A model generated the notes under the pieces. That model was not told the origin of the DNA, ran no database searches, and saw only the letters and a program-made list of their open reading frames with translations. Below, piece after piece: positions 3,267 through 26,389 of a stretch of 32,780 bases of DNA (positions are counted from its first letter, which is position 1; each line of letters opens with the position of its first letter). The position numbers were made by a program, and so were the translations under genes. This DNA is from a virus. The stretch lies in the UHGV virus genome UHGV-0305798; one strand, 5' to 3'.

Positions 3267-4006
3267 CCACTTTAACCGACAAAGAACTGATTAAAGAAAT
3301 CAAAGAGCGCATAGGTAGCCTGGATGTGAGAGACAATATTGAGCGCCGTGCTTATGAAATTGCTCTGGCATCGCTGGAAGCAAAACCAATAGGTGCATTC
3401 CACATTGCAGAACAGCAAGTTGACGGCACAAGTGACTACCTCAAGGATGGAGAATGGCCTATTGATAATGGAATTATTGAGGTCTACGCCGCTCCCCCCG
3501 TTCCAGTAGTACCGGAAGAAAAACCAATGCCTAACGCTCTAAGCATGCTTGAAAGAGAGATCACACAACTGATTGGTGATGCGCAGGAAGCCACTGTTAC
3601 TGGCTATGAGTTAATCGCTGAAGCTTGGCGTTTGATGGATGGACAAGACCCTAAAACCAGCGATTGGCATAGCAAGGCTTCGAAGTATTTAAATTCCAAT
3701 ATTGTAGAAAAAGTTGATGATGACCGTATTGATGCAATTAAGGCTGTTTTGCGTAGACTGGCTGGCAACTATCCGGTAACTCCGGATGGTTGGATAAGCT
3801 GTAGTGAGCGAATGCCGAAAAAGAATCAGAACGTACTTATTTCGGTGAATTTCGATAGTGATCTGGTTGAGCCGCTAATATGCTCCGCACGCTATACCGG
3901 AAGTACCTTTCGGCGAGGACAAGCAACGATTAAGCCGGGTAATGGTATTGAGCAGGCAACCCACTGGATGCCGCTGCCAGAACCGCCGCAGGAGGTGAAT
4001 CAATGA
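3263..4006 (+). CDS. DUF551-like prophage protein
   Basis: ATG at 3263 preceded by GAGGA. C-terminal block (WISCSERMPK...HWMPLPEPP) resembles the DUF551 domain common in enterobacterial prophages (recall-based). Confidence 0.55.
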   Translation: MTTLTDKELIKEIKERIGSLDVRDNIERRAYEIALASLEAKPIGAFHIAEQQVDGTSDYLKDGEWPIDNGIIEVYAAPPVPVVPEEKPMPNALSMLEREITQLIGDAQEATVTGYELIAEAWRLMDGQDPKTSDWHSKASKYLNSNIVEKVDDDRIDAIKAVLRRLAGNYPVTPDGWISCSERMPKKNQNVLISVNFDSDLVEPLICSARYTGSTFRRGQATIKPGNGIEQATHWMPLPEPPQEVNQ

Positions 4007-4086
4007 GCTGGCCTGATGCAATCGTAACTCTGGGGATGGTATTCGCAGTAGCGTTTGTTGTGTACTCGATTTGTCGATGGGGATAA
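4003..4086 (+). CDS. possible small hydrophobic peptide (27 aa)
   Basis: ATG at 4003 overlaps upstream stop (ATGA); encodes MSWPDAIVTLGMVFAVAFVVYSICRWG, a single predicted transmembrane helix. Below the ORF track length cutoff; speculative. Confidence 0.2.
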   Translation: MSWPDAIVTLGMVFAVAFVVYSICRWG

Positions 4087-4090
4087 CCAC

Positions 4091-4333
4091 ATGTTCGCTT
4101 TGATTCAACGCGGGCAGATATACACCGATAGTGCTGGCTATCCAGTAAAAATCATTCGTAGTACTGATCACTCAGTGTTCTTCAAGAGGATGGATGGCTA
4201 TCCTGGAAGGGTGTGCATCAGAAAATTCAATAATTTATTCGAACACATTGATCACAGAGAATATCACCAGATCCTGGCTGAAACAGAACAGGAGAACCAT
4301 CTGAAAAAATTACGTGCCATGCAAAGGAGATAA
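4091..4333 (+). CDS. hypothetical protein (80 aa)
   Basis: First ATG (4091) within ORF 4055..4333; no family recognised. Confidence 0.45.
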   Translation: MFALIQRGQIYTDSAGYPVKIIRSTDHSVFFKRMDGYPGRVCIRKFNNLFEHIDHREYHQILAETEQENHLKKLRAMQRR

Positions 4334-4368
4334 ACCGGTAAAGGTGTTCGCGATAAAGGTAAATATTG

Positions 4369-4707
4369 ATGGCTAAATCAGCAGCAGAGCGCAAAGCCGC
4401 TCAGAGAGCCAGACAAGCTGCATCTGGTGTGCGTAAGCTGGAAATTGTGCTTGATGCTCAGGAAATTGAAATGCTGGAGCGTAACTGTGCCACGCGTCGC
4501 CCCGGGCGTGCGCCTTACGAATTTGGTGAGTATATAGCGTTACTGATCCGCCAGGATGATGCACGTGTGCGCGGGCGTATAAAATCGATCAGCAGAAAAC
4601 GTTGCGGTAAGTGCGGCGAGAGAGTTCCAGTTAATTCATGCCCGTGTAATGGTGACTCGCAATGCTGGGTGACTAAAGGCTGGCATGAAACGAAATTAAT
4701 AGTGTGA
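4369..4707 (+). CDS. hypothetical basic protein with C-terminal zinc-ribbon (candidate regulator)
   Basis: ATG at 4369 (4366 is TTG). Basic N-terminus, C-terminal CGKCG...CPCNGDSQC. It is the last gene before the terminator and the terminase operon. Confidence 0.5.
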   Translation: MAKSAAERKAAQRARQAASGVRKLEIVLDAQEIEMLERNCATRRPGRAPYEFGEYIALLIRQDDARVRGRIKSISRKRCGKCGERVPVNSCPCNGDSQCWVTKGWHETKLIV

Positions 4708-4715
4708 CATGTCAC
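4704..4715. repeat. 12-bp perfect palindrome GTGACATGTCAC (copy 1)
   Basis: Read directly; overlaps the stop codon of the 4369..4707 gene. Identical copy at 6969..6980. Confidence 0.6.
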
Positions 4716-4756
4716 GAGTAGATTATGCATGATGAATTTGATGGATTTTGAATACT

Positions 4757-4782
4757 GCCGCCAACTATGGCGGCTTTATTTT
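4757..4782 (+). terminator. rho-independent terminator upstream of terminase operon
   Basis: GCCGCCA-acta-TGGCGGC hairpin followed by TTTATTTT. Confidence 0.5.
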
Positions 4783-4793
4783 GCATGGTATTA

Positions 4794-4808
4794 TTACCAC
4801 AACGGTAA
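4794..4808. promoter_or_regulatory. palindromic site TTACC-ACAAC-GGTAA (copy A)
   Basis: Read directly; a half-degenerate second copy (TTACC-ACGGT-GGTTA) follows immediately. Lies 18 bp upstream of the terminase small subunit ATG. Confidence 0.4.
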
Positions 4809-4825
4809 CAATTACCACGGTGGTT

Positions 4826-5422
4826 ATGATGCCTGCTGAACCTAAAACCTATAAACGCAAATCAACGCAATTTAAGCCACTAACAGCAATGCAGGAGGCT
4901 TATTGCCAGTCATACATCAAAACGCCTGAAAACCAGACTCAGGCAGCGATTAACGCAGGATTCTCCCCAAATACAGCGGCAGTTAAAGCCAGTGTCATGA
5001 TGCGCGATGAACGCATTCAAAAACGGATTGCCGAGTTGATGGAGGAGCGCAACAAACGAATGCGCGTCAGTGCTGATTACGTTCTCATGCGCCTGGTGGA
5101 GATCGACCAGATGGACGTGATCGACATCCTCAACGACGATGGGAGCCTTAAACCAATCCGCGAGTGGCCGAAAATCTGGCGCACTACGCTTAGCGGCTTT
5201 GATCTGTCATCGACCATCATGAACATGAACGAGGATTCGATAGAGACAATCCTCAAAAAAATTAAATGGCCTGACAAGGTGAAGAACCTTGAGCTGATTG
5301 GTAAGCATGTTGATGTCAACGCGTTCAAAGAACGCCTGGATGTTAATGTGAATGTGACAATTGCTGATCGCATAGCGGCAGCCAGGAAGAGACTGAAAGA
5401 ACGTCAGGATGGCAATCAGTGA
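4826..5422 (+). CDS. terminase small subunit
   Basis: Contains the TerS-type helix-turn-helix block (LTAMQEAYCQSY...QTQAAINAGFSPNTAAVKAS...IQKRIAELMEER). Start placed at ATG 4826 after GGTGG; the ORF-track start 4748 would add an implausible hydrophobic extension. Overlaps the large subunit start. Confidence 0.8.
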   Translation: MMPAEPKTYKRKSTQFKPLTAMQEAYCQSYIKTPENQTQAAINAGFSPNTAAVKASVMMRDERIQKRIAELMEERNKRMRVSADYVLMRLVEIDQMDVIDILNDDGSLKPIREWPKIWRTTLSGFDLSSTIMNMNEDSIETILKKIKWPDKVKNLELIGKHVDVNAFKERLDVNVNVTIADRIAAARKRLKERQDGNQ

Positions 5423-6894
5423 CAGATACAGCGTTATCTCCTGAAGAGCAGTTGATCGAGGATATTGCAGGGTTCACTCACGATCCGCTTGGCTATGCCC
5501 TCTATGCGTTCCCGTGGGGGGAAGAAGGGACTGAACTGGCACATGCTACCGGCCCACGTCAGTGGCAGGCTGATGCGTTCCGAGAGATACGTGATCACCT
5601 GCAGAATCCAGAGACGCGATATCAGCCGCTTATGCTGGCACGTGCTTCTGGTCACGGTATTGGTAAATCCGCATTCATCTCAATGCTGATCAACTGGGGC
5701 ATGTCCACTTGCGAGGATTGTAAGGTCGTGGTGACCGCCAACACCGACAACCAGCTACGAACGAAGACCTGGCCGGAAATTATCAAGTGGTCAAACCTTG
5801 CTATCACGAAAGACTGGTTTACCTGTACCGCTACCGCGATGTACAGCAATGACCCTGGGCACGACAAGCGGTGGCGAGCTGACGCAATCCCCTGGTCTGA
5901 GCACAACACTGAGGCGTTCGCCGGACTACACAACGAGCGCAAACGCATCATCGTGGTATTCGATGAAGCGTCGAACATTGCGGATCTGGTGTGGGAAGTT
6001 GCTGAGGGTGCGCTTACGGACGAAGACACTGAGATTATCTGGGTAGCGTTCGGAAACCCTACACGTAACACCGGGCGTTTCCGCGAATGTTTCCGCAAAT
6101 ATAAACACCGCTGGAAAACTGCGCAGATTGACAGCCGGACGGTGGAAGGCACTAACAAACAGCAGTTGCAGAAATGGGTTGATGACTACGGGGAAGATAG
6201 CGACTTCGTTAAAATCCGTGTGCGCGGCATATTCCCTGATGCATCTGAATTGCAGTTTATCCCTACCGGTCTTACTGATGAGGCAATGAAACGGGTGGTA
6301 ACCGCTGCGCAGGTTGCACATGCTCCGGTGATAATCGGCGTTGACCCGGCATACTCAGGCGTTGATGACGCGGTGATATACCTGCGGCAGGGGCTGCACA
6401 GTAAGGTGCTATGGACTGGTAACAAGACCACCGACGATCTGATTATGGCGAAGCGTATCGCTGACTTTGAAGACCAGTATCAGGCTGACGCGGTGTTCAT
6501 CGACTTCGGTTACGGAACCGGTTTGAAGTCAATCGGTGATGGCTGGGGACGTACATGGCAACTTGTTCCGTTCGGCGGTGCGTCCACTGACCCGCAGATG
6601 CTTAACAAGCGTGGGGAGATGTTCAACTCATGTAAGACATGGCTGAGGCTGGGCGGCATGCTGGATGACCAGGAAACTGCAGACGACCTGTCAGCGGCAG
6701 AGTACAAAGTTCGTGTGGACGGTAAAATCGTTATCGAACCGAAGGAAGATATCAAGGAGCGGCTTGGGCGTTCGCCGGGTAAAGGCGATGCGCTACTGCT
6801 GACGTTTGCTTTCCCTGTGTCGAAGCGTCTGCGAATTCCTGGGCAGCAGAACCAGCAAGGCAAGGCCATCACAGATTATGACCCGTATGCTTAA
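5419..6894 (+). CDS. terminase large subunit
   Basis: 491 aa with Walker-A-like ATPase motif (ARASGHGIGKS) and C-terminal nuclease-type acidic motifs (VVFDEAS, GVDPAYSG). GTG start at 5419 preceded by AGGATGG. Confidence 0.9.
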   Translation: MTDTALSPEEQLIEDIAGFTHDPLGYALYAFPWGEEGTELAHATGPRQWQADAFREIRDHLQNPETRYQPLMLARASGHGIGKSAFISMLINWGMSTCEDCKVVVTANTDNQLRTKTWPEIIKWSNLAITKDWFTCTATAMYSNDPGHDKRWRADAIPWSEHNTEAFAGLHNERKRIIVVFDEASNIADLVWEVAEGALTDEDTEIIWVAFGNPTRNTGRFRECFRKYKHRWKTAQIDSRTVEGTNKQQLQKWVDDYGEDSDFVKIRVRGIFPDASELQFIPTGLTDEAMKRVVTAAQVAHAPVIIGVDPAYSGVDDAVIYLRQGLHSKVLWTGNKTTDDLIMAKRIADFEDQYQADAVFIDFGYGTGLKSIGDGWGRTWQLVPFGGASTDPQMLNKRGEMFNSCKTWLRLGGMLDDQETADDLSAAEYKVRVDGKIVIEPKEDIKERLGRSPGKGDALLLTFAFPVSKRLRIPGQQNQQGKAITDYDPYA

Positions 6895-6944
6895 TCCGCT
6901 GGTGGGGATAATGTCGTTGATATCCTCTGATGAGGATAAAACAA

Positions 6945-6970
6945 AGCCAGCTCATCGGCTGGCTGTTTGT
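6945..6970. terminator. terminator hairpin after terminase large subunit
   Basis: AGCCAGC-tcatc-GGCTGGCT followed by GTTTGT; a second hairpin (TATCCTC-tgat-GAGGATA) lies just upstream. Sits between convergent genes. Confidence 0.45.
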
Positions 6971-6980
6971 GACATGTCAC
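6969..6980. repeat. 12-bp perfect palindrome GTGACATGTCAC (copy 2)
   Basis: Read directly; identical to 4704..4715, with the same flanking T and G. Confidence 0.6.
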
Positions 6981-6984
6981 GGTG

Positions 6985-7407
6985 TTAGAAGGTTATTTTA
7001 TCGAATGCGGCGTTGATTGCCTTGGCGTCCTGCTCAGCACCAACCACATCAAGTAAAGATCTTTTACTAAGCACTTCAGCCAGGCATTGTAACTTCATGT
7101 TGTATAAGTTTTCGCGCATGTAATCATCATCACTTTTTTCTTTGGCGTATACAGCGCGAGAAATATCAAACACATTGCCTTTTTCCATTTCAGTTTTCTG
7201 CGCTGAAATCCAGTCATGGCAAGTAACTCCTATTCCATGGTCATCGCTAAGCGTTAACCCGGCAAGTCGCTCACCTGGAATTGCTTCACAAAGCATTTCA
7301 TTTCCTGCAAAAACACCATAAAAAATTGAGTCATCACCCTGAACAATGCGTACATATTTGCACGGCCATTCATTTAGATATTTAGCTAGCATGTCGGCTG
7401 TTTTCAT
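6985..7407 (-). CDS. hypothetical protein (140 aa), reverse-strand insert between terminase and portal
   Basis: ATG at 7407 preceded by AAGGTGAG; clean ORF; looks AT-richer than flanking genes by eye; no family recognised. Confidence 0.6.
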   Translation of the reverse strand: MKTADMLAKYLNEWPCKYVRIVQGDDSIFYGVFAGNEMLCEAIPGERLAGLTLSDDHGIGVTCHDWISAQKTEMEKGNVFDISRAVYAKEKSDDDYMRENLYNMKLQCLAEVLSKRSLLDVVGAEQDAKAINAAFDKITF

Positions 7408-7424
7408 GATCTCACCTTAAAAAA

Positions 7425-7448
7425 ATGCCCGGCGAACCGGGCTGTACT
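7425..7448 (-). terminator. rho-independent terminator (minus strand) between tRNA and the 140-aa gene
   Basis: Minus-strand reading GCCCGG-ttcg-CCGGGC followed by ATTTTTTT, immediately upstream of the gene's RBS. Confidence 0.4.
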
Positions 7449-7572
7449 GGTTTACAGCATGAAGTCATCGCAATGGCGTCCTGCTGTAAAAAGGGCGGTG
7501 ATAGTTCTTCAAGGGAAACCATCACCGCCAAGCCCCTGGAACTTCTGGCATCACGGTCCTTAGGCGTGATTC

Positions 7573-7649
7573 TGGCGTGGCATGCAGGATTCGAACCTGC
7601 GACCAACCGCTTAGAAGGCGGTTGCTCTGTCCGACTGAGCTAATGCCAC
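7573..7649 (-). tRNA. tRNA-Arg (anticodon UCU)
   Basis: Minus-strand sequence GTGGCATTAGCTCAGTCGGACAGAGCAACCGCCTTCTAAGCGGTTGGTCGCAGGTTCGAATCCTGCATGCCACGCCA folds as a cloverleaf: 7-bp acceptor stem, D arm, anticodon stem ACCGC/GCGGT with loop CTTCTAA, T loop TTCGAAT, encoded CCA end. Confidence 0.85.
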
Positions 7650-7971
7650 AACGCTGAGAGCACTTAGCCTGTTAAGGCGCCACACTTTGTCGCGGCTCCA
7701 TAAATGCTCTCATCGTTGTACCCTCGTCTCTTCCGAGGCGTCACACCGAATCGCCGGGATGGTGAATCCCCGTGCGCGGAATAAAACCGCTCGACTTGCA
7801 CATTCCGGCTACCTGGTTCGTTTGCCCGAGCAAGGGAGGGTGCCCCTTAAACGTATCCAGACCGCTATCGGCGCATGTGCCATACGCCGTACTGCTCAAA
7901 ATAAAAGCTCACTCCACCTGTTTAATTTAACGACAAGCCAGTCAGGTTAGTAACCAGAATGAGCTCTTTAG

Positions 7972-7986
7972 TTACCTGAAAGGTAA
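7972..7986. promoter_or_regulatory. palindromic site TTACC-TGAAA-GGTAA (copy B)
   Basis: Read directly; about 90 bp upstream of the small ORF and portal operon; 17-mer TTACCTGAAAGGTAATA is identical to copy E. Confidence 0.4.
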
Positions 7987-8076
7987 TAATTCACGCGTTA
8001 AATGTCAACCTTCTACGATAAATAAATCATATGTGGTTAAATTGGTAATAATTTAATTGCGTACGGAGTCATTGAT

Positions 8077-8283
8077 ATGTGCATGGGTAGCTCACCATCA
8101 GTGCCTGCAACACCAGAAGTTCAGGCAGCACCACAGGAGCAGGATGCCGCCGTTGTTGATGCCCGCGACGAAGAAACACGTCGCCGTCGCGCTGCTGCTG
8201 GTCGTAGTTCTACGCTGCTTACCGGTTCTCAGGGCGACACATCAACCGCTAATACCAGCGGTAAAACGCTGCTTGGTCAGTAA
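8077..8283 (+). CDS. small hypothetical protein (68 aa)
   Basis: ATG at 8077 preceded by GGAGTCATTGA, the same 11-nt initiation region that precedes the portal ATG. Low-complexity product; the overlapping frame 8057..8296 is less convincing. Confidence 0.4.
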   Translation: MCMGSSPSVPATPEVQAAPQEQDAAVVDARDEETRRRRAAAGRSSTLLTGSQGDTSTANTSGKTLLGQ

Positions 8284-8297
8284 CCGGAGTCATTGAA

Positions 8298-9977
8298 ATG
8301 GCGGAAACAACTAAAGAGCGATTGAACAAACAGTTCGCACAACTTGAAAGCGAGCGTCAGTCGTTCGAGCCGCACTGGCGCGAGTTGAGTGATTACATCA
8401 ACCCGCGTGGTTCCCGCTTTCTGACTTCTGAGGTCAACCGTAACGATCGACGCAATACACGCATTATTGATTCGACCGGGACTATGGCGGCGCGCACTCT
8501 CGCCAGCGGCATGATGTCAGGCATCACAAGCCCTGCGCGTCCGTGGTTTCGCCTGGCTACGCCAGATCCTGAAATGATGGATTATGGTCCTGTTAAGTTG
8601 TGGCTCGAGGCGGTGCAGAACCGCATGAACGATATGTTCAATAAGTCGAATCTCTACCAGTCTCTTCCGCAGTTATACGGAAGCCTCGGCACATACAGCA
8701 CTGGTGCAATGGCGGTGCTGGAGGATGACGAGGACATCATTCGCACAATGCCATTCCCGATAGGCAGTTACTACCTGGCTAACTCACCTCGTGGCAGTGT
8801 GGACACCTGTTTTCGCAAGTTCTCTATGACTGTTCGTCAGCTTGTTCAGGAGTTCGGGCTAAATAACGTCAGCGAATCCGTAAAAAGCATGTGGGAAAGC
8901 GGCACCTACGAGAAGTGGATTGACGTGATGCATTCGGTTTACCCGAACATTGACCGCGATACATCGAAGCTGGATAGCAAGAACAAGCCATTCAAATCGG
9001 TTTATTACGAGGTTGGTGGCGATAACGACAAGTTGTTGCGTGAGTCCGGATTTGATGAGTTTCCAATTATGGCTCCGCGCTGGGAAGTTAATGGCGAAGA
9101 TGTTTATGGATCATCATGCCCGGGTATGCTGGCGCTTGGACCTGTTAAGGCATTGCAGCTTCTCCAGAAGCGCAAGTCGCAGTTGATTGATAAAGCCACC
9201 AATCCGCCGATGGTTGCTCCGACTTCCCTCAAGAATCAGCGCGCCTCCCTTCTTCCTGGCGACATCACGTATATCGATCAGATTACTGGTCAGGATGGTT
9301 TCAGGCCTGCTTATCTGGTTAACCCCAGTACAGCAGATCTGGTAGCAGACATTCAGGACACTCGTCAAATCATTAACAGCGCCTACTTTGTCGATCTGTT
9401 CATGATGTTGCAGAACATCAATACCCGCTCGATGCCTGTTGAAGCGGTGATCGAAATGAAAGAAGAAAAACTTCTGATGTTGGGGCCGGTTCTGGAGCGT
9501 CTGAACGACGAATGTCTTAACCCTCTCATTGACCGCGCTTTCTCGATGATGGTGCGTAAAAACATGCTGCCGCCACCGCCTGACGCGATGGAAGGTATGC
9601 CCCTGAAGGTCGAATACATTTCCGTCATGGCTCAGGCGCAGAAGTCTATCGGCCTGTCCAGTCTGGCGTCCACGGTTAACTTCATTGGTCAACTTGCGCA
9701 AGCGAAACCAGAAGCTCTCGACAAACTCAACGTTGATCAGGCGATCGATGCATTCGCTGATATGTCCGGAGTGTCTCCAACCGTCATTGTTCCGCAGGAA
9801 CAGGTTGAGCAGGCTCGCCAGCAACGGGCACAGCAACAACAGCAGCAACAAATGATGGCGATGGGGATGGCGGCGGCACAGGGTGCCAAGACGCTAAGCG
9901 AAGCTAAAACTTCGGATCCGAGTGTTTTGTCAGCTATGGCGAATGCAGTTAGTGGTCAGGGTGGGCAATCACAATGA
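8298..9977 (+). CDS. portal (head-to-tail connector) protein, T7 gp8-like
   Basis: 559 aa; position after terminase; Gln/Ala/Met-rich C-terminal tail (QQQQQQMMAMGMAAAQGA) resembles the T7 gp8 C-terminus (recall-based). Confidence 0.8.
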   Translation: MAETTKERLNKQFAQLESERQSFEPHWRELSDYINPRGSRFLTSEVNRNDRRNTRIIDSTGTMAARTLASGMMSGITSPARPWFRLATPDPEMMDYGPVKLWLEAVQNRMNDMFNKSNLYQSLPQLYGSLGTYSTGAMAVLEDDEDIIRTMPFPIGSYYLANSPRGSVDTCFRKFSMTVRQLVQEFGLNNVSESVKSMWESGTYEKWIDVMHSVYPNIDRDTSKLDSKNKPFKSVYYEVGGDNDKLLRESGFDEFPIMAPRWEVNGEDVYGSSCPGMLALGPVKALQLLQKRKSQLIDKATNPPMVAPTSLKNQRASLLPGDITYIDQITGQDGFRPAYLVNPSTADLVADIQDTRQIINSAYFVDLFMMLQNINTRSMPVEAVIEMKEEKLLMLGPVLERLNDECLNPLIDRAFSMMVRKNMLPPPPDAMEGMPLKVEYISVMAQAQKSIGLSSLASTVNFIGQLAQAKPEALDKLNVDQAIDAFADMSGVSPTVIVPQEQVEQARQQRAQQQQQQQMMAMGMAAAQGAKTLSEAKTSDPSVLSAMANAVSGQGGQSQ

Positions 9978-10270
9978 CAGATTACGAAGACGATCAACTG
10001 AAAGAAGAAAACGCCCGTAAGCAACGTGACATGGCACAGCGTGAAATTGATGACATTCGCTTTGTCATGAGCAGTGAACAGGGGCGTCGCGTTGTCTGGT
10101 CGGTGCTGGAGAAAGGCCGTGTGTTTTCCGCTATCTCACCGATGGACGCTATGGCAATGGCATTTAATGAGGGGCAACGCAATCTGGCGCTGGAACTGTT
10201 TCAGCGCGTTATGGCGCATTGCCCTGAACAGTATTTGAAGATGGCCAAAGAGGCCAGTGAACAGGAGTGA
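9974..10270 (+). CDS. hypothetical head-assembly-region protein (98 aa)
   Basis: ATG overlaps portal stop (ATGA); charged helical protein between portal and scaffold. Confidence 0.5.
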   Translation: MTDYEDDQLKEENARKQRDMAQREIDDIRFVMSSEQGRRVVWSVLEKGRVFSAISPMDAMAMAFNEGQRNLALELFQRVMAHCPEQYLKMAKEASEQE

Positions 10271-23971: not shown

Positions 23972-23997
23972 AGGCCGCTTTCGCGGCCTTGTTTTTA
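23972..23997 (+). terminator. rho-independent terminator after the secreted-protein gene
   Basis: GGCCGC-tttc-GCGGCC hairpin followed by TGTTTTT. Confidence 0.55.
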
Positions 23998-24946: not shown

Positions 24947-24961
24947 TTACCCTTGAGGTAA
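24947..24961. promoter_or_regulatory. palindromic site TTACC-CTTGA-GGTAA (copy C)
   Basis: Read directly; about 60 bp upstream of the 210-aa gene start. Confidence 0.4.
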
Positions 24962-25993: not shown

Positions 25994-26008
25994 TTACCGC
26001 AAAGGTAA
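25994..26008. promoter_or_regulatory. palindromic site TTACC-GCAAA-GGTAA (copy D)
   Basis: Read directly; extended palindrome ATTTACC-GCAAA-GGTAAAT; lies between the antirepressor and the small paralogous gene. Confidence 0.4.
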
Positions 26009-26317: not shown

Positions 26318-26337
26318 AACTGTATATTTATACAGTA
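26318..26337. promoter_or_regulatory. LexA (SOS) box
   Basis: AACTGTATATTTATACAGTA matches the CTGT-N8-ACAG consensus (TACTGTATATATATACAGTA) at 18 of 20 positions; sits just upstream of the small antirepressor-like gene. Confidence 0.7.
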
Positions 26338-26374: not shown

Positions 26375-26389
26375 TTACCTGAAAGGTAA
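26375..26389. promoter_or_regulatory. palindromic site TTACC-TGAAA-GGTAA (copy E)
   Basis: Read directly; about 105 bp upstream of the tailspike ATG and about 40 bp beyond the LexA box; 17-mer identical to copy B. Confidence 0.4.

What the first reader, a model, noticed from the sequence alone, without database searches (positions are those of the whole stretch)
4704..6980. Identical 12-bp palindrome GTGACATGTCAC on both sides of the terminase cassette
The perfect palindrome, with identical flanking T and G, occurs at 4704-4715 (overlapping the stop codon of the gene before the terminase operon) and at 6969-6980 (just after the terminase large subunit terminator). Chance expectation for a second copy of a given 12-mer in this window is about 0.004. 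A near-copy (GTGACATGGCAC) at about 10025-10036 is inside a coding region and treated as coincidence. Possible roles: a protein-binding site bracketing the packaging genes, boundary sequences mediating module exchange, or a nuclease or packaging recognition element.
Basis: seen in the sequence. Interest (0 to 1): 0.5.

Follow-up and report, generated by a model that had tools for sequence, protein, structure and literature searches.

The report
Conserved phage palindrome marking operon ends
The repeated 12-base palindrome is real and strictly conserved across a whole genus of temperate phages, but it goes with a small uncharacterised DNA-binding-like protein and with the ends of transcription blocks where accessory genes are swapped, not with the DNA-packaging genes.

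Summary
Both copies of GTGACATGTCAC exist at the stated coordinates, with the same flanking T and G. The window is a phiV10/epsilon15-like (Uetakevirus) prophage.

The palindrome is under strong selection. It is invariant in relatives from at least 12 enterobacterial genera, while the flanking DNA becomes unalignable. Only the two central bases ever vary (GTGAC-N2-GTCAC).

It is not specific to the terminase genes:
- Complete genomes (PAS61, VB_ST_E15, Tyrion) carry exactly three copies. All are intergenic, at 3' ends of transcription blocks beside intrinsic terminators.
- Accessory genes are exchanged, ORF-precisely, right next to these copies.
- The copy after terL is missing in 11 of 78 relatives with ≥99% identical TerL.
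- The first copy always accompanies the stop codon of a 112-aa orphan protein (phrog_536). In a species-wide scan, 18/18 loci with that gene had the palindrome and 0/31 without it did. This includes non-Uetakevirus prophages where the gene lies beside xis/int with no terminase nearby.

Best reading: a protein-binding boundary element. Its function is inferred and has not been shown.

The parts
4704..4715 (.). Palindrome copy 1 (site 1), GTGACATGTCAC, overlapping the TGA stop of the 112-aa gene. This is the core copy of the family.
   Evidence: It overlaps the stop, or lies within 9 nt of it, in 44 of 50 distinct 3' contexts of the gene and in 68 of 90 contexts anchored on the GWHET-coding pattern. 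It is present in 18 of 18 species-level loci that encode the protein.
6969..6980 (.). Palindrome copy 2 (site 2), between the bidirectional terL terminator and the stop of the minus-strand accessory ORF.
   Evidence: It lies within 150 nt of the terL stop in 76 of 119 distinct contexts. Exactly 4 nt separate it from the reverse-strand stop codon in all 39 distinct downstream sequences.
4369..4707 (+). 112-aa orphan protein (phrog_536), last gene of the early-right block. It is the candidate binder of the palindrome and is predicted to have a ribbon-helix-helix-like core plus a C-terminal Cys cluster (C79, C82, C91, C93, C99).
4725..4751 (+). Remnant (ATGCAT|GATGAATTTGATGGATTTTGA) of a roughly 70-codon small ORF that is intact in relatives. 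This is accessory slot 1, emptied by a 186-bp internal deletion.
   Evidence: Comparison with L006: the palindrome lies 309 nt rather than 123 nt from the terS ATG.
4757..4782 (+). Intrinsic terminator t1 (GCCGCCaactatGGCGGC plus T-run) that closes the early block and slot 1.
   Evidence: It is conserved, with compensatory stem changes, in relatives.
4794..4808 (.). A different palindrome, TTACC-N5-GGTAA, immediately upstream of terS (operator/promoter-associated motif).
   Evidence: The same motif occurs in the repressor-cro intergenic region of PAS61 and upstream of terS and of the portal block in 16 of the 18 enterobacterial relatives that encode the 112-aa protein.
4826..6894 (+). terS (4826-5422, Terminase_2) and terL (5419-6894). 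These are the genes lying between the two copies in this window.
6945..6964 (.). Bidirectional intrinsic terminator t2 (AGCCAGCtcatcGGCTGGCT).
6985..7407 (-). Accessory ORF (phrog_4846, 140 aa) occupying slot 2. It is replaced ORF-precisely by about 10 unrelated genes in relatives.
7408..7442 (-). Conserved 5' flank of slot 2: hairpin GCCCGGttcgCCGGGC, then ATTTTTTTAAGGTGAGATC, then ATG.
10026..10037 (+). One-mismatch near-copy GTGACATGGCAC inside ORF 9974-10270. Judged a coding coincidence and not part of the element.
23973..23988 (+). Terminator GGCCGCtttcGCGGCC at the end of the structural block. This is the position where relatives carry the third palindrome copy; the window lacks it.

Best explanation
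GTGACATGTCAC (consensus T-GTGAC-N2-GTCAC-R) is a selected, family-specific cis element. It is most likely the binding site of a dimeric sequence-specific DNA-binding protein. The best candidate is the 112-aa ribbon-helix-helix-like protein encoded immediately upstream (4369-4707), whose stop codon lies inside copy 1.

The element punctuates the 3' ends of transcription blocks: the early-right block, the block closed by the terL terminator (where terS-terL and the minus-strand accessory gene converge), and, in relatives, the structural block. It always lies close to intrinsic terminators and at the edge of the slots where accessory ('moron') genes are exchanged.

Inferred mechanism: the protein is made as the last early gene and occupies these sites. 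There it acts as a boundary element, either insulating lytic operons from neighbouring accessory genes or bridging the sites.

In this window the two copies flank terS-terL only because they close two consecutive blocks.

Shown: conservation, strict spacing, positions, co-occurrence with the gene, and ORF-precise cassette swapping.
Inferred: protein binding, the identity of the binder, and the boundary function.
For: 1. Selection. The palindrome is exact in relatives whose TerL is 75-95% identical and whose phrog_536 protein is 47-80% identical, from Erwinia, Scandinavium, Klebsiella, Pseudocitrobacter, Buttiauxella, Rahnella, Citrobacter, Superficieibacter, Pantoea, Pseudescherichia, Cronobacter, Salmonella and Enterobacter. 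Downstream flanks there are at background similarity.
2. Variation. In the species-level relatives, changes at the conserved sites are confined to the two central bases, as expected for two half-sites read by a dimer. Rare single half-site changes occur among close relatives.
3. Spacing. Held phage loci contain 538 copies with a 2-bp centre, 0 with 3 bp, 1 with 1 bp and 2 with 4 bp.
4. Copy number. Three complete genomes from three host genera each have exactly three copies, all at block ends beside terminators.
5. Link to the gene. 18 of 18 loci with a phrog_536 homologue (30-80% aa identity) have the palindrome and 0 of 31 without one do. In 42 of 50 distinct contexts it overlaps the stop, and in 2 more it lies 5-9 nt after it. 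The pair also travels together into prophages where xis/int lies downstream.
7. RNA structure. As RNA the palindrome folds at only -1.2 kcal/mol, no better than shuffles. No Rfam family matches.
8. Host frequency. It is not a common host repeat: 0 copies in 108 kb of E. coli K-12.
Against: - No binding data exist.
- The protein has no significant sequence match to any DNA-binding family. hhalign against MatP gives 0.2% probability.
- Co-occurrence is confounded by physical linkage, because the site overlaps the stop codon, and by phylogeny, because all positives are Enterobacterales.
- Sites at 3' ends are unusual for an RHH regulator.
- Spacing to the terminator is not constant: about 22 nt or more at site 1 against 1-5 nt at sites 2 and 3.
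- Copies 2 and 3 are dispensable.
- A few homologues lack the site (L342, L351, L352, L354, L366).
Confidence: 0.5

Rival explanations
1. Recombination anchor. The palindrome is part of short conserved regulatory flanks (terminator, palindrome, RBS) that serve mainly as homology for exchanging accessory-gene cassettes between phages. This would resemble the PeSL cassettes of T4-type phages (recalled from Arbiol et al. 2010). On this view its conservation reflects that role, or hitch-hiking with functional terminators.
For: Variable DNA begins right after the palindrome at all three hot spots. At slot 2, about 10 unrelated ORF families sit between identical flanks: hairpin-ATTTTTTTAAGGTGAGATT-ATG upstream and STOP-CRCC-GTGACATGTCAC-AAWCAG-hairpin downstream. 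L032 carries two tandem cassettes, each with its own hairpin and palindrome. The phage encodes RecT and an exonuclease.
Against: Selection for evolvability is second-order and is unlikely to keep 12 bp invariant across genera while adjacent terminator stems change by compensatory substitutions. 12-14 bp is short for homologous recombination. This reading does not explain the tie to the 112-aa gene in unrelated prophage backgrounds. It is compatible with, rather than exclusive of, a binding-site function.
Confidence: 0.2
2. Host-factor site. The palindrome is a matS-like site (E. coli consensus GTGACATTGTCAC minus one central base) bound by host MatP or another host nucleoid protein. It would link the phage or prophage to chromosome organisation.
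For: The half-sites, and even the flanking T and G, match the consensus matS oligonucleotide (PMC8669397). The matS pattern is GTGAC[AG]N[TC]GTCAC (PMC3603311 and PMC3116907). The element is confined to Enterobacterales; to my recollection MatP has a similar taxonomic range. Prophages avoid true matS (PMC3603311).
Against: Spacing is strictly 2 bp and never 3 bp, which moves and rotates the half-sites for a symmetric dimer. The SlmA site GTGAGTACTCAC differs at the four central positions. A host-factor site would not explain the tight coupling to the phage gene. No binding data exist.
Confidence: 0.1
3. RNA-level element. The palindrome acts in the transcript between stop codon and terminator, for example as the target of an RNA-binding antiterminator, a processing site or a 3'-end stability signal.
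For: In the minimal arrangements every copy lies between a stop codon and an intrinsic terminator, in the direction of the gene that ends there. The predicted small hairpin abuts the terminator stem. The fixed 4-nt distance from the stop at site 2 could reflect ribosome occupancy.
Against: The hairpin is only -1.2 kcal/mol, with z-score -0.03. Perfect two-fold symmetry, including a self-complementary centre, is not needed for an RNA hairpin. No compensatory changes are seen among variants. The orientation of the T...G flanks relative to transcription differs between site 1 and sites 2/3. The distance to the terminator varies. There is no Rfam match.
Confidence: 0.1
4. Packaging signal. The palindromes are pac or terminase-recognition or cleavage sites flanking the packaging genes.
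For: Copy 1 lies upstream of terS, where pac or cos sites often lie. The element is shared by phages whose TerL is at least 75% identical and is absent from those with TerL at 58% or less.
Against: Relatives have three copies per genome, one of them 17 kb away. Copy 2 is absent in phages with the same terminase. The distance to terS is variable. The palindrome follows the 112-aa gene where no terminase is nearby. Packaging is by headful, with permuted ends (PMC5754475).
Confidence: 0.05

Closest known systems
MatP-matS of E. coli (13-bp GTGAC-RNY-GTCAC bound by an RHH-containing protein)
   Same: The half-sites GTGAC/GTCAC are identical, and the phage site equals the consensus matS minus one central base. 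There are few dispersed copies. The element is confined to Enterobacterales. The candidate binder's best, though weak, structural match is the MatP-matS complex.
   Different: The centre is 2 bp rather than 3 bp, with no exceptions. The element is in a phage, not in the chromosomal Ter domain. The protein is 112 aa, has no detectable MatP Pfam domains, and has a Cys-rich C-terminus where (from memory) MatP has a coiled coil; the N-terminal four-helix bundle I recall for MatP is also not predicted. Homology has not been shown.
Ribbon-helix-helix repressor-operator pairs (Arc, Mnt, CopG, MetJ, antitoxins)
   Same: A short perfect palindrome with half-site conservation and a tolerant centre, next to a small RHH-like protein encoded nearby.
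   Different: The sites lie at the 3' ends of genes and operons, not in the protein's own promoter. No autoregulatory arrangement is visible.
PeSL regulatory cassettes of T4-type phages (promoter-early plus stem-loop units flanking variable ORFs; recalled from Arbiol et al. 2010, not read here)
   Same: Short conserved regulatory sequences, including a stem-loop, flank interchangeable ORFs in hyperplastic regions. Tandem cassettes each carry a copy.
   Different: The unit contains no promoter. It is a temperate podovirus. An invariant 12-bp palindrome is an added, sequence-specific component.
Stoperators of mycobacteriophage L5 and dispersed C1 operators of P1 (recalled from the literature)
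   Same: A short regulator site dispersed in intergenic regions, often touching stop codons, and thought to affect transcription between genes.
   Different: Those sites are asymmetric, number in the tens per genome and bind the immunity repressor. Here there are three symmetric copies. The repressor-like dispersed motif of this phage is a different sequence, TTACC-N5-GGTAA.

Membership tests
matS (MatP-binding site) | 13-bp motif GTGAC[AG]N[TC]GTCAC | tested here: not met
   The site is 12 bp. There are 0 matches to the 13-bp pattern in the window or in 3.65 Mb of held phage loci, against 538 12-bp copies. The pattern is taken from PMC3603311 and PMC3116907.
matS (MatP-binding site) | Located in the chromosomal Ter macrodomain and bound by MatP | not testable with these tools
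   Binding needs EMSA or ChIP. The element is phage-borne. A 108-kb K-12 Ter sample held one true matS and no 12-bp form.
MatP protein family (candidate binder) | MatP N-terminal and C-terminal (RHH) Pfam domains PF06303 and PF17414, or MatP-like sequence | tested here: not met
   No Pfam hit even at E<=10. hhalign probability is 0.2%. True MatP proteins carry both domains.
Ribbon-helix-helix DNA-binding proteins | Beta-strand, helix, helix fold forming a dimer | tested here: inconclusive
pac/cos packaging site | Single site in or next to terS that co-varies with the terminase and defines the DNA ends | tested here: not met
   Relatives have three copies per genome. Copy 2 is absent with an identical terminase. 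The element occurs without a terminase nearby. Ends are permuted. The cleavage position itself was not testable.
Intrinsic (rho-independent) terminator | Stable GC-rich hairpin followed by a U-tract | tested here: not met
   The palindrome hairpin is -1.2 kcal/mol, no better than shuffles, and has no T-run of its own. True terminators lie beside it.
Sigma-70 promoter | -35 and -10 hexamers at 16-18 bp | tested here: not met
   The only match is a weak 9/12 (GTGACA-18-CATGAT) at copy 1. The region holds fewer promoter-like sites than its shuffles, and copy 2 has none.
SlmA-binding site | GTGAGTACTCAC | tested here: not met
   The length and the outer 4 bp are the same, but all four central positions differ. 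There are 0 SBS-pattern matches in the held loci.
PeSL-like mobile regulatory cassette | Conserved promoter plus stem-loop units flanking variable ORFs and mediating their shuffling | tested here: inconclusive
   Conserved stem-loop/RBS and palindrome/terminator flanks around about 10 ORF families were found. There is no promoter in the unit. Recombination activity is not testable here.
Known RNA families (Rfam) | Covariance-model match | tested here: not met
   Only the tRNA-Arg matched in 4000-8500.

The most novel reading that the evidence does not exclude
Uetakeviruses and some other enterobacterial prophages encode their own MatP/matS-like system. A small RHH-plus-zinc-cluster protein would recognise a 'phage matS' that is one base pair shorter than the host site, and so insulated from host MatP. 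It would bridge or insulate the three boundaries of the phage genome, or interfere with host MukBEF/MatP-dependent DNA organisation during infection or lysogeny.
Probability: 0.15. Interest if true: 0.85.

Novelty: new variant of a known kind. Interest (0 to 1): 0.55.

Why it matters
If confirmed, this would define a previously undescribed cis element and give a first functional handle on an orphan phage protein family of about 1000 members, all annotated 'hypothetical'.

It would also show how a temperate phage genus punctuates its genome. One palindrome (TTACC-N5-GGTAA) sits at the heads of transcription blocks, and another (GTGACATGTCAC) sits at the ends of three of them, exactly where host-conversion and other accessory genes are plugged in and swapped.

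The near-identity to the host matS site, in a class of elements reported to avoid true matS, raises a testable link between phage genome organisation and host chromosome-structuring proteins.

On the practical side, the conserved slot flanks are natural landing pads for engineering phiV10-type reporter phages.

Tried and rejected
- Physical genome end or cos site: the phiV10 record starts at window 4708 and the Tyrion record is cut in the middle of the palindrome. Both are arbitrary linearisations after the last gene, and Tyrion is circularly permuted.
- Promoter: only a weak 9/12 match.
- RNA hairpin: -1.2 kcal/mol. No Rfam match.
- Immunity operator: the repressor-cro region of PAS61 carries TTACC-N5-GGTAA instead.
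- CRP and SlmA sites: wrong spacing or wrong centre (own knowledge for CRP; for SlmA).
- Common host repeat: none in 108 kb of K-12.
- 14-mer hits in unrelated phages are either coding coincidences (for example the start of a likely Q-like antiterminator gene, reading MRDMSQ) or GTGAC arrays inside ORFs of high-GC phages that may encode replication initiators.
- An analogous recurrent palindrome in distant TerL relatives: none found.
- Sequence homology of the 112-aa protein to MatP, RHH families or defence proteins: nothing significant.
- The first AF2 model (pLDDT 61) and its Foldseek search were uninformative.
- The MatP homologue search returned sequences that were almost all at least 97% identical, so no better profile comparison was possible.
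- Literature: no paper in the library contains the 12-mer or describes matS-like sites in phages. The epsilon15 genome paper could not be retrieved and the phiV10 genome paper was not looked up.
Full report
**1. Observation**

GTGACATGTCAC occurs exactly twice in the window, at 4704-4715 and 6969-6980. Both copies are preceded by T and followed by G. A one-mismatch copy lies at 10026-10037.

- Copy 1 contains the TGA stop (4705-4707) of ORF 4369-4707.
- Copy 2 lies 4 nt after the hairpin 6945-6964 that follows terL, and 4 nt before the reverse-strand stop of ORF 6985-7407.

The window has eight perfect 12-bp palindromes, as expected by chance. Only 33 of 2000 Markov shuffles contained a recurring one. 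The window alone is therefore suggestive rather than decisive.

**2. What the window is**

The region is 99% identical to Escherichia phage vB_EcoP_PAS61 and 95-97% identical to phiV10, TL-2011b, ZX5 and hundreds of E. coli prophages. These belong to the genus Uetakevirus, the epsilon15/phiV10 group.

The genes around the finding are:
- Ead/Ea22, DUF551 and DUF4222 early genes;
- a 112-aa orphan (phrog_536);
- terS (Terminase_2) and terL;
- a minus-strand accessory gene (phrog_4846);
- tRNA-Arg;
- the portal gene.

**3. Conservation**

Among 80 IMG/VR relatives with TerL at least 99% identical, the upstream copy is present, exact or with one mismatch, in all 79 with enough upstream flank. The downstream copy is present in most and missing in 11 of 78.

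In one-genome-per-species data, every enterobacterial relative with TerL 75-95% identical has GTGAC-N2-GTCAC upstream of terS, and about half have it after terL. Relatives with TerL at 58% or less have none.

The flanks are unalignable between these genomes, yet the 12 bases are invariant. The only changes at these conserved positions are at the two central positions: ACCTGT, ACAGGT, ACGTGT. Among close relatives, rare single half-site changes do occur.

Pantoea and Cronobacter prophages show the same pattern.

In all held phage DNA there are 538 copies with a 2-bp centre and none with a 3-bp centre.

**4. It is not a terminase element**

Complete genomes from three host genera each have exactly three copies: PAS61 (E. 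coli), VB_ST_E15 (Salmonella) and Tyrion (Enterobacter). The positions are:

1. at the stop of the 112-aa gene, then about 24 nt, then terminator t1, then TTACC-N5-GGTAA, then terS;
2. after the terminator downstream of terL, abutting the stop of a minus-strand accessory gene (directly after the terL terminator in PAS61 and VB_ST_E15; in Tyrion one extra minus-strand gene lies in between);
3. at the end of the structural operon, directly before terminator GGCCGC..GCGGCC and a region of minus-strand accessory genes.

The window has the third terminator (23973-23988) but not the palindrome.

The distance from copy 1 to terS ranges from 123 to about 1900 bp. The two copies in this window flank terS-terL because they close two consecutive transcription blocks, not because they belong to the packaging module.

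Packaging in this group is by headful (PMC5754475). The phiV10 record start inside the palindrome is an arbitrary cut.

**5. Junctions of gene exchange**

- At site 2, homology between the window and phiV10 ends at 6987 (the stop codon) and resumes at 7407 (the start codon).
- Across relatives, about 10 unrelated ORF families occupy this slot between the same flanks. The upstream flank is hairpin-ATTTTTTTAAGGTGAGATT-ATG. The downstream flank is STOP-CRCC-GTGACATGTCAC-AAWCAG-hairpin.
- The palindrome is always exactly 4 nt from the stop.
- L032 carries two such cassettes in tandem, each with its own hairpin and palindrome.
- At site 1 the variable segment lies between the palindrome and t1. It holds a small ORF, LexA-box-driven genes or nothing. 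The window keeps only a deletion remnant at 4725-4751.
- At site 3, at least nine different sequences follow the same terminator-plus-palindrome.

**6. Link to the 112-aa gene**

- Of 50 distinct 3' contexts of the gene, 42 have the palindrome overlapping the stop and 2 have it 5-9 nt later.
- Of 90 contexts anchored on the GWHET-coding pattern, 68 have it. Most of the remainder are unrelated sequences or one-mismatch variants.
- In the species-level set, 18 of 18 loci with a homologue (30-80% aa identity) have the palindrome and 0 of 31 without one do.
- Gene and palindrome also occur together in prophages that share nothing else with the window. There they lie next to an alpA/xis-like gene and an integrase, or next to a lambda-type integrase.

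This is compatible with a protein and its site. It is also what physical linkage would give, so it is suggestive rather than proof.

**7. The protein**

The family has about 1000 members, all called hypothetical and, where named, all from Enterobacterales. There is no significant Pfam, NCBIfam, PADLOC or PDB sequence hit.

The invariant residues include an N-terminal basic helix, the motif NC-x2-RRPG-x2-PY, and five C-terminal cysteines.

The better AF2 model has pLDDT 67.8, with the core near 80. It has helices 5-18, 30-43 and 52-75 after an extended segment.

**8. Resemblance to matS**

The matS pattern is GTGAC[AG]N[TC]GTCAC (PMC3603311, PMC3116907). The E. coli consensus is GTGACATTGTCAC (PMC8669397). 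The phage site is that consensus minus one central base.

True matS is reported to be absent from, and avoided in, 500 Escherichia/Salmonella prophages (PMC3603311). None occurs in the held loci.

The SlmA site shares the length and the outer four bases but differs at the four central positions.

Membership in the matS/MatP system fails on the defining 13-bp spacing and on protein sequence. The functional analogy, an RHH-type protein reading GTGAC half-sites, remains open.

**9. Other readings**

- As RNA the palindrome is a -1.2 kcal/mol hairpin, no better than shuffles.
- No promoter is evident.
- No Rfam family matches.
- It is not the immunity operator, which appears to be TTACC-N5-GGTAA.
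- It is absent from 108 kb of K-12.
- No paper in the library mentions the sequence.

**10. Verdict**

The terminase-centred and packaging ideas are not.

The most likely mechanism is a dimeric protein, probably the adjacent RHH-like 112-aa protein, binding a boundary element at the ends of transcription blocks next to accessory-gene slots. That mechanism is inferred and needs binding and mutational tests.

Noticed in passing
window 4794-4808, 7972-7986, 24947-24961, 25994-26008, 26375-26389: A second dispersed palindrome, TTACC-N5-GGTAA(T), has 5 copies in the window, where chance expects about 0.03. Complete relatives carry 8-11 copies, clustered in the repressor-cro region and placed singly upstream of terS, the portal block, the tailspike and other blocks. 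It is often followed 30-45 nt later by CATATGTGGTT (window 8029 and 26420). It looks like a genome-wide operator or promoter signature of the genus.
   Followed up: partly
window 6981-7442 and relatives L001-L082, L085-L094, L336, L337: The accessory slot after terL is swapped ORF-precisely. About 10 unrelated ORF families run from the same ATG to a stop placed exactly 4 nt from the palindrome, between conserved hairpin/RBS and palindrome/terminator flanks. How unrelated genes acquire such exact junctions is unexplained.
   Followed up: partly
window 7573-7649 (-): A tRNA-Arg (anticodon TCT) lies in the variable region between the accessory slot and the portal operon. It is also annotated in E. 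coli and Klebsiella relatives.
   Followed up: no
window 26320-26335 and 7442-7457; L083 ~1040-1060, L085 ~1600-1620: LexA-box-like sequences (CTGT-N8-ACAG) occur next to accessory genes. In Klebsiella, Enterobacter and Citrobacter relatives, a near-consensus promoter (TTGACT-17-TATACT) overlapped by a LexA box starts exactly 6 nt after palindrome copy 1 and drives a small inserted gene.
   Followed up: partly
window 4716-4756: The short stretch after copy 1 is the remnant of a roughly 70-codon ORF. Its ATG and its last eight codons are kept and 186 bp are deleted. The ORF is intact in about a quarter of close relatives.
   Followed up: yes
L250 7225-8950, L223 1441-3250, L168 9030-11400: The 112-aa gene plus palindrome also sits at the end of other prophages, directly upstream of an alpA/xis-like gene and a convergent integrase, or of a lambda-type integrase. 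The pair is therefore mobile between phage types.
   Followed up: partly
L154 10760-10860, L202 1890-1950, L173 755-800, L240 10810-10900: In unrelated high-GC phages, GTGAC/GTCAC units, including GTGACATGTCAC, form dense arrays inside ORFs that may encode replication initiators (not annotated here). They may be origin iterons read by a different protein.
   Followed up: no
L337 (Tyrion, NC_031077) record ends; L001/L002 (phiV10) record ends: Both GenBank records are linearised inside the palindrome: Tyrion at GTGACA|TGTCAC and phiV10 at GTGA|CATGTTAC. This appears to be a convention (a cut after the last gene) rather than a mapped end. phiV10 copy 1 carries a C-to-T change.
   Followed up: yes
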